A stretch of DNA of 64,000 bases, taken from the NCBI RefSeq assembly GCF_045037415.1, contig NZ_CP173438.1. One strand, given 5' to 3'. The translations under genes and the position numbers were made by a program. Shown here piece after piece: positions 56,703 to 58,176 of the stretch (position 1 is the stretch's first letter; the number at the start of each line of letters is the position of its first letter). The DNA is from Escherichia coli. GTDB taxonomy: Bacteria > Pseudomonadota > Gammaproteobacteria > Enterobacterales > Enterobacteriaceae. A model generated the notes under the pieces. The model was not told the DNA's origin and did not search any database. It saw only the letters and a program-made list of their open reading frames with translations.

Positions 56703-58176
56703 ATGTCCCGAATGGCAGAACAGCAGCTTTATATACATGGTGGTTATACCTCCGCCACCAGCGGTCGCACCTTCGAGACCATTAACCCGGCCAACGGTAA
56801 CGTGCTGGCGACCGTGCAGGCCGCCGGGCGTGAGGATGTCGATCGCGCCGTGAAGAGTGCCCAACAAGGGCAAAAAATCTGGGCGGCGATGACCGCTATG
56901 GAGCGCTCGCGTATTCTGCGTCGGGCCGTTGATATTCTGCGTGAACGCAATGACGAACTCGCAAAACTGGAAACCCTTGACACCGGAAAAGCATATTCGG
57001 AAACCTCAACCGTCGATATCGTTACCGGTGCGGACGTGCTGGAGTACTATGCCGGGCTGATCCCGGCGCTGGAAGGCAGCCAGATCCCGTTGCGTGAGAC
57101 GTCATTTGTTTATACCCGCCGCGAACCGCTGGGTGTGGTGGCGGGGATTGGCGCATGGAACTACCCGATCCAGATTGCTTTGTGGAAATCCGCCCCAGCG
57201 CTGGCGGCAGGCAATGCAATGATTTTCAAACCGAGCGAAGTCACCCCGCTTACCGCGTTAAAGCTGGCCGAAATTTACAGCGAAGCGGGCCTGCCGGACG
57301 GCGTATTTAACGTGTTGCCGGGCGTGGGCGCGGAGAACCGGACAATATCTGACCGATCATCCGGGCATTGCCAAAGTGTCATTTACCGGCGGTGTCGCCA
57401 GCGGCAAAAAAGTGATGGCTAACTCGGCAGCTTCCTCCCTGAAAGAAGTGACCATGGAGCTGGGCGGTAAATCACCGCTGATCGTTTTCGACGATGCGGA
57501 TCTCGATCTCGCCGCCGATATCGCCATGATGGCGAATTTCTTCAGCTCCGGTCAGGTGTGTACCAACGGCACTCGCGTCTTCGTTCCGACGAAATGCAAA
57601 GCCGCATTTGAACAAAAGGTTCTGGCGCGCGTTGAGCGCATTCGCGCGGGCGACGTTTTCGATCCGCAAACTAACTTCGGCCCGCTGGTCAGCTTCCCGC
57701 ATCGCGATAACGTGCTGCGCTATATCGCCAAAGGCAAAGAGGAAGGCGCGCGCGTACTGTGCGGCGGCAATGTACTGAAGGGGGATAGCTTCGATAACGG
57801 CGCATGGGTTGCACCGACCGTGTTCACCGATTGCAGCGACGATATGACCATTGTGCGAGAAGAGATTTTCGGGCCAGTGATGTCCATTCTGATCTACGAG
57901 TCGGAAGACGAAGTCATTCGCCGCGCTAACGATACCGACTACGGTCTGGCGGCGGGTATCGTGACGGCGGACCTGAACCTCGCGCATCGCGTCATTCATC
58001 AGCTGGAAGCGGGTATTTGCTGGATCAACACCTGGGGCGAATCCCCGGCAGAGATGCCCGTTGGCGGCTACAAACACTCCGGCATTGGTCGCGAGAACGG
58101 CGTGATGACGCTCCAGAGTTACACCCAGGTGAAGTCCATCCAGGTTGAGATGGCTAAATTCCAGTCCATATTCTAA
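56703..58176 (+). pseudogene. betB: betB, betaine-aldehyde dehydrogenase, interrupted by an apparent +1 frameshift between ~57330 and 57376
   Basis: Frame 0 [29 protein letters not shown]...[10 protein letters not shown] then nonsense and stop at 57422; +1 frame continues [39 protein letters not shown]... to 58176. Span 1474 nt = 3n+1. Confidence 0.85.

What the first reader, a model, noticed from the sequence alone, without database searches (positions are those of the whole stretch)
57327..57380. betB carries a +1 frameshift splitting betaine-aldehyde dehydrogenase into two overlapping ORFs
The N-terminal 240 codons and the C-terminal 266 codons both read as continuous aldehyde dehydrogenase sequence, but in different frames; the junction lies after ...[10 protein letters not shown], where the sequence reads GCGGAGAACCGG. 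The gene span is 3n+1. If real, choline to glycine-betaine osmoprotection would be lost while betT/betI/betA remain; if not real, it is a single-base assembly error.
Basis: seen in the sequence. Interest (0 to 1): 0.6.

Follow-up and report, generated by a model that had tools for sequence, protein, structure and literature searches.

The report
betB frameshift is a sequencing artefact
The extra base that splits the betaine-aldehyde dehydrogenase gene is really in the sequence, but it sits in a DNA-methylation site (GAGACC) where several near-identical E. coli ST131 assemblies carry mutually inconsistent errors, so it is most likely a long-read base-calling artefact and not a lost gene.

Summary
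betB (56703..58176) is 1474 nt and has one extra A at 57336, turning GAGACC into GAGAACC. This splits it into a 239-codon and a 266-codon ORF. Removing the A restores the 490-aa BetB of other ST131 strains exactly.

The insertion is most likely not biological. GAGACC/GGTCTC is the site of the Eco31I-family restriction-modification system of ST131. One strand carries m6A and the other is predicted to carry m5C, and the site is fully adenine-methylated in strain EC958. In this 64-kb window, both indels relative to a clean ST131 genome lie in GAGACC, in betB and in prpR, and both are the same extra A.

Four related assemblies (Esc20, Esc14, 447, 439) show different, mutually incompatible changes at the same motif sites. 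A second region (GI-leuX) repeats this: every difference in Esc20 and 447 from EC958 lies inside the motif. The betB and prpR insertions occur in all four combinations within one clonal lineage, so they cannot both have arisen once and been inherited clonally.

Only 3 of 5170 complete genomes carry the betB insertion. The changes match published methylation-induced nanopore errors. Verdict: artefact (about 0.85). Interest is low, apart from a quality-control warning.

The parts
56703..58176 (+). betB as written: 1474 nt, frameshifted. It becomes a 490-aa betaine-aldehyde dehydrogenase once one A is removed.
   Evidence: The repaired protein scores 913.7 bits on NF009725 (cutoff 593), matching end to end. 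PGAP marks the same sequence 'frameshifted' in Esc20, 447 and 439.
57333..57339 (+). GAGAACC: an Eco31I-family (RM.EcoMI) methylation site GAGACC with one extra A (57336 or 57337). This is the cause of the frameshift.
   Evidence: The only difference from intact ST131 betB. Motif and methylation are described in PMC4659465.
56703..57422 (+). N-terminal ORF of 239 aa. Residues 1-211 are native BetB; the remaining 28 are out of frame (NRTISDRSS...KSDG).
   Evidence: profile positions 1-215; 385 bits, below the cutoff.
57376..58176 (+). C-terminal ORF of 266 aa in the native BetB frame (GTG start).
   Evidence: profile positions 224-488; 492 bits, below the cutoff.
39400..39406 (+). Second GAGACC site carrying the same extra A (39403). 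It splits prpR into ORFs 38092..39453 and 39422..39691.
   Evidence: Among complete genomes it is shared only with Esc14 and UID2309220015. Esc20 reads GAACC here; 447, 439 and SK1144 read GAGACC.
4459..4464 (+). GAGACC site that is correct in the window but reads GAACC in Esc20, GGAACC in 447 and GAAACC in 439.
56775..56780 (+). GAGACC site inside betB that is unchanged in every assembly where it was fetched (439 was not fetched here). Not every site is affected.
53940..55973 (-). betT, intact choline transporter (677 aa).
   Evidence: Same WP_000131040.1 in the related records.
56102..56689 (+). betI, intact repressor (195 aa).
58190..59860 (+). betA, intact choline dehydrogenase (556 aa).

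Best explanation
The extra A in betB is most likely an error of long-read (most likely Oxford Nanopore) base calling or consensus polishing at a doubly methylated restriction-modification site. It is probably not a mutation in the organism. ST131 strains carry an Eco31I-family type IIS system. It methylates GAG(m6A)CC on one strand and is predicted to methylate GGT(m5C)TC on the other. The modified bases would disturb the pore signal, so reads are miscalled around the two adjacent modified base pairs. At sites where the error fraction is near half, the assembly consensus tips one way or the other. The outcome is GAGAACC, GAACC, GGAACC or GAAACC in place of GAGACC. On this reading the real gene is an intact, ordinary betB in an ordinary betT-betIBA locus. 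What is shown: the motif association, the incompatible states among assemblies, the presence of the RM genes in two sister assemblies, and published methylation of the motif in the lineage. What is inferred: the sequencing platform of the window's source, and that its genome also carries the RM system.
For: 1. Both indels separating the window from SK1144 over 64 kb are GAGACC to GAGAACC, in prpR (39403) and betB (57336). The motif footprint is 28 of 64000 nt, so the chance of both falling there is about 2e-7.
2. States at the four motif sites differ among near-identical assemblies.
 - Site 4459: GAGACC in the window, Esc14 and SK1144; GAACC in Esc20; GGAACC in 447; GAAACC in 439.
 - Site 39400: GAGAACC in the window and Esc14; GAACC in Esc20; GAGACC in 447, 439 and SK1144.
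 - Isolates 439 and 447 show no ordinary SNP between them in the 50 kb compared, yet they differ at site 4459.
3. All four combinations of the prpR and betB insertions exist: window +/+, Esc14 +/-, 447, 439 and Esc20 -/+, SK1144 -/-. They lie 18 kb apart in a clonal lineage, so they cannot both have arisen once and been inherited clonally; that pattern needs recurrence.
4. An independent region, GI-leuX, was compared with EC958. All 3 Esc20 differences are in the motif (GGTCTC to GGTTTC twice, GAGACC to GAAACC once; p about 4e-9). Both 447 differences are in the motif (GGTCTC to GGTTCTC, the reverse complement of the betB insertion, and GGTCTC to GGTTC; p about 2e-6). One site has different states in the two assemblies.
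5. GAGACC is the RM.EcoMI site, with 100% of its adenines methylated in ST131 EC958 and m5C predicted on the other strand (PMC4659465). Esc20 and 447 encode both methyltransferases and the endonuclease with the same protein accessions as EC958.
6. Methylation causes C-to-T and G-to-A errors in R10.4.1-only bacterial assemblies (PMC11610603; PMC11610573). The substitutions seen at the predicted m5C position are of exactly these types.
7. 447 and 439 also carry homopolymer indels, in an A8 run and a TTT run, typical of long-read-only assemblies.
8. Only 3 of 5170 complete genomes carry the betB insertion, while about 407 have the same local sequence without it. The rest of betB has no other change.
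9. Other public betB disruptions of this allele cluster on the motif: delG631, insG631 and 637G>T. A 636C>A change also lies in it, on a contig that starts at gene position 631, and may not be a disruption.
Against: The identical insertion appears in assemblies from at least two submitters: 447 and 439 from Taiwan, and Esc20 from ENA. It also appears in an ENA contig (L006) and a Logan contig (L011, run ERR11040402). If any of these derives from Illumina reads, the change would be real there; the platforms could not be looked up. Published methylation-induced errors are mainly substitutions, and I found no report of indels at this motif. The RM locus of the window's own genome lies outside the window. 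No reads were available.
Confidence: 0.85

Rival explanations
1. It is a genuine, recent 1-bp insertion that inactivates betB in a small ST131 sublineage. betT, betI and betA stay intact. Choline would be oxidised to betaine aldehyde, and the dedicated dehydrogenase step would be lost.
For: The same insertion occurs in 447, 439, Esc20, L006 and L011. The site is not a homopolymer run. PGAP annotates it as a frameshifted pseudogene.
Against: The carriers do not behave as a clade. The prpR and betB insertions occur in all four combinations. The same assemblies carry other, mutually different changes confined to the same methylation motif. There is no further decay in betB. Esc14 differs from the window by only 2 SNPs in 64 kb and has intact betB.
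Confidence: 0.08
2. It reflects a real mutational hotspot: Eco31I-family sites are intrinsically unstable in vivo, through m5C deamination or repair after self-restriction. Frameshifts would then arise and revert recurrently at GAGACC sites, giving on/off variation of betB, prpR and other genes.
For: The changes are recurrent and motif-restricted. C-to-T at m5C is a known real hotspot (general knowledge, Dcm sites). The motif is depleted in the core genome: 4 true sites against 16.9 expected.
Against: Deamination cannot produce +A, -G or AG-to-GA changes. Some 25-50% of sites are altered per assembly while the background shows almost no SNPs, which would erase the motif within a clone. About 407 ST131-type genomes are unchanged at the betB site. 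E. coli lacks end-joining repair that would create indels at cut sites (general knowledge).
Confidence: 0.04
3. It is a programmed +1 ribosomal frameshift, and a full-length BetB is made from the sequence as written.
For: Both halves are perfectly conserved and overlap by 47 nt.
Against: 5167 of 5170 genomes encode betB in a single frame at this position. I see no slippery or hungry-codon context and no upstream Shine-Dalgarno-like stimulator around GAG AAC CGG (by inspection).
Confidence: 0.01

Closest known systems
Methylation-induced base-calling and assembly errors in nanopore-only bacterial genomes (Lohde et al. 2024, PMC11610573; Liu et al. 2024 'Hammerhead', PMC11610603)
   Same: The errors are tied to methylated positions, recur at particular sites, and vary between isolates and runs. 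C-to-T and G-to-A consensus errors occur at the predicted m5C position: GGTCTC to GGTTTC and GAGACC to GAAACC.
   Different: Here the motif is identified: the Eco31I-family GAGACC/GGTCTC site, modified on both strands. The errors also include single-base insertions and deletions that create false pseudogenes. The cited papers stress substitutions, and I found no paper naming this motif as error-prone.
RM.EcoMI, the Eco31I homologue of E. coli ST131 (Forde et al. 2015, PMC4659465)
   Same: The recognition sequence is the same. The same genes, with identical protein accessions, are present in Esc20 and 447. The motif is reported as fully adenine-methylated in EC958.
   Different: That paper describes the methylome by PacBio and does not discuss sequencing errors. 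The RM locus is about 0.5 Mb from this window, so it is not visible here.
E. coli betT-betIBA choline-to-glycine-betaine locus (BetB, NF009725 / TIGR01804)
   Same: Gene order and sequences are identical to those of intact ST131 strains. The repaired BetB is 100% identical at the DNA level to the SK1144 gene encoding WP_001295806.1.
   Different: As written, the gene carries one extra base.

Membership tests
BetB, betaine-aldehyde dehydrogenase (NCBIfam NF009725 equivalog) | A single polypeptide matches the model end to end above the curated cutoff (593 bits). | tested here: not met
   As written, the two ORFs score 385.4 and 492.5 bits and cover profile positions 1-215 and 224-488. After deleting one A, the 490-aa product scores 913.7 bits over 1-488.
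BetB, betaine-aldehyde dehydrogenase (NCBIfam NF009725 equivalog) | Genomic context is betT divergent from betI-betB-betA. | tested here: met
Methylation-induced long-read assembly error | The discrepancy lies in a motif known to be methylated in this lineage. | tested here: met
   GAGACC is the RM.EcoMI site and is 100% adenine-methylated in EC958. The RM genes are intact in Esc20 and 447. The window's own RM locus is not visible.
Methylation-induced long-read assembly error | Discrepancies between near-identical genomes are concentrated in the motif. | tested here: met
   Both window indels (2 of 2), all 3 Esc20 differences and both 447 differences in GI-leuX fall in the motif, with p from about 2e-6 to 4e-9.
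Methylation-induced long-read assembly error | States at a given site are inconsistent among clonal isolates and incongruent with descent. | tested here: met
   Site 4459 has four states among six assemblies. The prpR and betB insertions occur in all four combinations.
Methylation-induced long-read assembly error | The assembly was made from native-DNA nanopore reads without short-read correction. | not testable with these tools
   No platform metadata or reads were available. The only indirect hint is homopolymer indels in 447 and 439.
Methylation-induced long-read assembly error | The error disappears with unmethylated (PCR/WGA) template or with orthogonal chemistry. | not testable with these tools
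   This requires reads or resequencing.
Genuine lineage pseudogene | The carriers form a clade, so the change is congruent with other variants. | tested here: not met
   The four-gamete test fails with the prpR insertion. Esc14, which differs from the window by 2 SNPs, has intact betB.
Genuine lineage pseudogene | There is further decay, or support from independent sequencing chemistry. | tested here: inconclusive
   There are no other changes in 1473 nt, which fits either a very recent event or an artefact. The chemistry of L006 and L011 is unknown.
Programmed ribosomal frameshift | The frameshift is conserved among homologues. | tested here: not met
   It is present in 3 of 5170 genomes.

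The most novel reading that the evidence does not exclude
GAGACC/GGTCTC sites of the Eco31I-family system are genuine in-vivo indel hotspots in ST131. They would produce recurrent, possibly reversible frameshifts that switch betB, prpR and other genes off and on. This would be a restriction-modification-linked form of contingency variation.
Probability: 0.03. Interest if true: 0.6.

Novelty: not a real feature. Interest (0 to 1): 0.12.

Why it matters
As biology it does not matter much: the strain most likely has a normal betB and normal choline-dependent osmoprotection.

It matters as a data-quality warning. At least five ST131 'complete genome' records in RefSeq (Esc20, Esc14, 447, 439, UID2309220015) carry false frameshifts or substitutions at Eco31I-family sites. 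The affected genes include betB, prpR, an autotransporter and a sugar transporter. Such errors inflate pseudogene counts, create false SNPs and cgMLST alleles in outbreak typing, and can be mistaken for convergent gene loss.

A simple check follows. In lineages that carry this RM system, flag every assembly difference that falls inside GAGACC or GGTCTC.

Tried and rejected
1. I first read the sharing of the insertion by three complete genomes from two submitters, plus two other public contigs, as proof of a real inherited mutation. I dropped this after whole-window comparisons showed the motif pattern.

2. I looked for clade-defining SNPs linking the carriers. The two SNPs separating the window from SK1144 near betB (56045, 61604) are private to SK1144, so they are uninformative.

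3. I tried to identify the window's source. It is not identical to Esc20, 447, 439 or Esc14. The nearest is Esc14, with 2 SNPs plus the betB indel. No genome in the RefSeq complete set carries both the prpR and betB insertions.

4. The exact-sequence look-up found the 239-aa product only on the Esc20 chromosome.

5. The clustering of other betB disruptions at gene positions 631-637 is partly an ascertainment effect, because I searched with the 266-aa C-terminal ORF. I use it only as supporting evidence.

6. Literature searches for this motif as a nanopore error site found nothing specific. A search on betB physiology was run but not read in depth.

7. I considered translational reinitiation producing a functional split enzyme. 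The ATG at 57415 lies just upstream of the TAA at 57420. I set this aside as moot and structurally unlikely, because the break falls inside the cofactor-binding domain. This was judged by inspection only.

Full report
**Observation.** The window carries the E. coli bet locus:
- betT, 53940..55973, - strand
- betI, 56102..56689
- betB, 56703..58176
- betA, 58190..59860

betB is written as two overlapping ORFs in different frames. The first runs 56700/56703..57422 (240 aa from GTG, 239 aa from the annotated ATG). The second runs 57376..58176 (266 aa). Both match the BetB equivalog model NF009725, covering profile positions 1-215 and 224-488, and each scores below the curated cutoff.

Aligned with the intact betB of ST131 strain SK1144 (1473 nt, 490 aa), the window differs at one point only. 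There is an extra A after gene position 634, at window 57336, so that GAGACC reads GAGAACC.

**Where the window comes from.** The 64 kb is E. coli ST131-type DNA, running from sbmA through the lac and prp operons to the bet locus and then ipbA-hyxR-hyxAB. It is 99.98-100% identical to many ST131 chromosomes. It is not identical to any record in the RefSeq complete-genome set. The nearest is Esc14, which differs by 2 SNPs and the betB base.

**First impression: a real, shared mutation.** The insertion is present in 3 of 5170 complete genomes that have the region. These are 447 and 439 (Taiwan; blood and wound pus) and Esc20 (an ENA submission). About 407 genomes have the same local sequence without it. 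PGAP annotates betB as 'frameshifted' in the three carriers. The same insertion also occurs on an ENA contig (L006) and a Logan contig (L011). Sharing across submitters normally argues for a real allele.

**What changed the picture.** Comparing the whole window with SK1144, 447, 439, Esc20 and Esc14 showed a pattern. The window's second indel is in prpR at 39403, and it is again GAGACC to GAGAACC. Every other indel or complex difference among these assemblies also lies in a GAGACC motif, apart from two homopolymer-length changes in 447 and 439.

There are four true GAGACC sites in the 64 kb. Their states are:

| Site | Window | Esc14 | Esc20 | 447 | 439 | SK1144 |
|---|---|---|---|---|---|---|
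| 4459 | GAGACC | GAGACC | GAACC | GGAACC | GAAACC | GAGACC |
| 39400 (prpR) | GAGAACC | GAGAACC | GAACC | GAGACC | GAGACC | GAGACC |
| 56775 (betB) | GAGACC | GAGACC | GAGACC | GAGACC | not fetched | GAGACC |
| 57333 (betB) | GAGAACC | GAGACC | GAGAACC | GAGAACC | GAGAACC | GAGACC |

The motif footprint is 28 of 64000 nt. The chance that both window indels fall in it is about 2e-7.

**Incongruence.**
- The prpR insertion is shared only with Esc14 and UID2309220015.
- The betB insertion is shared only with Esc20, 447 and 439.
- Esc14 has intact betB.
- All four combinations therefore exist for two sites 18 kb apart in a clonal lineage with almost no SNPs. Single origin and clonal descent cannot produce this; recurrence is required.
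- 439 and 447 show no ordinary SNP between them in the 50 kb compared, yet they differ at site 4459.

**Independent replication.** I fetched the GI-leuX region of EC958, Esc20 and 447 to look for the methyltransferase genes, and used it as a second test.
- All three Esc20 differences from EC958 lie in the motif: GGTCTC to GGTTTC twice and GAGACC to GAAACC once. That is 3 of 3 in 72 of 45902 nt, p about 4e-9.
- Both 447 differences lie in the motif: GGTCTC to GGTTCTC, which is the reverse complement of the betB insertion, and GGTCTC to GGTTC. Here p is about 2e-6.
- One site (EC958 locus position 31551) reads differently in the two assemblies. In 447 it produces another 'frameshifted' gene, a sugar transporter.

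**What the motif is.** GAGACC/GGTCTC is the recognition sequence of the Eco31I-family type IIS system RM.EcoMI of ST131. M1.EcoMI makes GAG(m6A)CC, and M2.EcoMI is predicted to make GGT(m5C)TC. In EC958, 100% of the GAGACC adenines were methylated (Forde et al. 2015, PMC4659465). The same double-strand methylation was detected from nanopore data in E. coli ATCC 25922 (PMC12679398). Esc20 and 447 encode both methyltransferases and the endonuclease with the same protein accessions as EC958. The two modified bases sit on adjacent base pairs, exactly where the insertions, deletions and substitutions occur.

**Why this points to an artefact.** Native-DNA nanopore assemblies are known to carry systematic errors at methylated positions, which vary among isolates. 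R10.4.1-only assemblies show an excess of C-to-T and G-to-A errors at modified sites, and these vanish with amplified DNA (PMC11610603; PMC11610573). The substitutions seen here are those types, at the predicted m5C position.

447 and 439 also have homopolymer-length errors, in an A8 run at 61490-61497 and a TTT run at 47633. These are typical of long-read-only assemblies.

A real mutational process would have to alter a quarter to a half of all motif sites within single clones. It would have to produce several different products per site and leave the rest of the genome almost untouched. It would also have to leave about 407 other ST131-type genomes unchanged at this site. Deamination of m5C could explain only the transitions, not the indels.

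**Residual doubt.**
- I could not see reads or platform metadata.
- The RM locus of the window's own genome lies outside the window.
- The cited literature stresses substitutions rather than indels, and I found no paper naming this motif as error-prone.
- If the Logan or ENA contigs carrying the insertion derive from Illumina data, the allele would be real in those samples.

I therefore put the artefact at about 0.85. A real inherited frameshift gets about 0.08, a real motif hotspot about 0.04, and a programmed frameshift about 0.01. The last is excluded in practice by the in-frame gene in 5167 of 5170 genomes.

**Consequences if it were real.** The N-terminal product would keep residues 1-211 and lose the rest of the cofactor-binding domain and the whole catalytic domain, so BetB would be inactive. 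From my own recollection (Landfald and Strom 1986, not checked here), BetA also oxidises betaine aldehyde. If so, osmoprotection by choline might be reduced rather than abolished.

**Comparison with what is known, and novelty.** The gene is an ordinary betB, and the locus is an ordinary betT-betIBA locus. The anomaly belongs to the known class of methylation-induced nanopore assembly errors. The specific points are that the motif is the Eco31I-family site and that the errors include frameshifting indels. These indels recur in several RefSeq 'complete' ST131 genomes. This is a useful quality-control observation, not a biological discovery, so I classify it as not a real feature.

Noticed in passing
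window 38092..39691 (prpR); extra A at 39403: prpR is split into ORFs 38092..39453 and 39422..39691 by the same GAGACC-to-GAGAACC insertion as betB. Among complete genomes it is shared only with Esc14 and UID2309220015. It is probably the same artefact.
   Followed up: yes
window, whole 64 kb (true sites 4459, 39400, 56775, 57333): The Eco31I-family site GAGACC/GGTCTC is strongly under-represented. There are 2 sites as written (4 true) against 16.9 +/- 3.8 expected from shuffles, and all four lie in one orientation. This is consistent with restriction-site avoidance in the core genome.
   Followed up: partly
window 2717 (inside iprA, - strand): The window has G where all five other ST131 assemblies compared have C. 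This is a private SNP, not in a GAGACC motif. Whether it is real or an error is unknown.
   Followed up: no
L018/L019 (strains 447 and 439), corresponding to window 24167: Both Taiwan isolates carry G-to-A inside lac operator O1 (AATTGTGAGCGG to AATTATGAGCGG). It is absent from the window. If real, it could be an operator-constitutive change.
   Followed up: no
window 61490-61497 (3' end of ipbA/fimX) and 47633 (fdrA): Strain 447 has an extra A in the A8 run, which lengthens the annotated invertase. Strain 439 lacks a T in a TTT run, which gives 'frameshifted' fdrA. These are homopolymer errors typical of long-read-only assemblies; the window is normal at both places.
   Followed up: partly
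window 40902..41146 (yahM): yahM is annotated 'frameshifted' at the corresponding position in all five ST131 records fetched for this stretch, including SK1144. It is a lineage-level feature or an annotation quirk, and it is not linked to the motif.
   Followed up: no
L006 5090..5801 (ENA ERZ28752602 contig_1730): This contig has the same betB insertion but leaves the window's sequence after window 59964. Downstream of betA it carries different DNA with an ORF that looks to me like a chain-length-determinant (Wzz) protein, judged by eye only. It is a different strain or a chimeric assembly.
   Followed up: partly
window 60945..62632 (ipbA/fimX, hyxR) and beyond: Downstream of betA lies the PAI-X locus typical of ExPEC: the tyrosine invertase IpbA (also called HbiF or FimX), the LuxR-type regulator HyxR, and hyxA and hyxB. 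It is identical to other ST131 strains.
   Followed up: no
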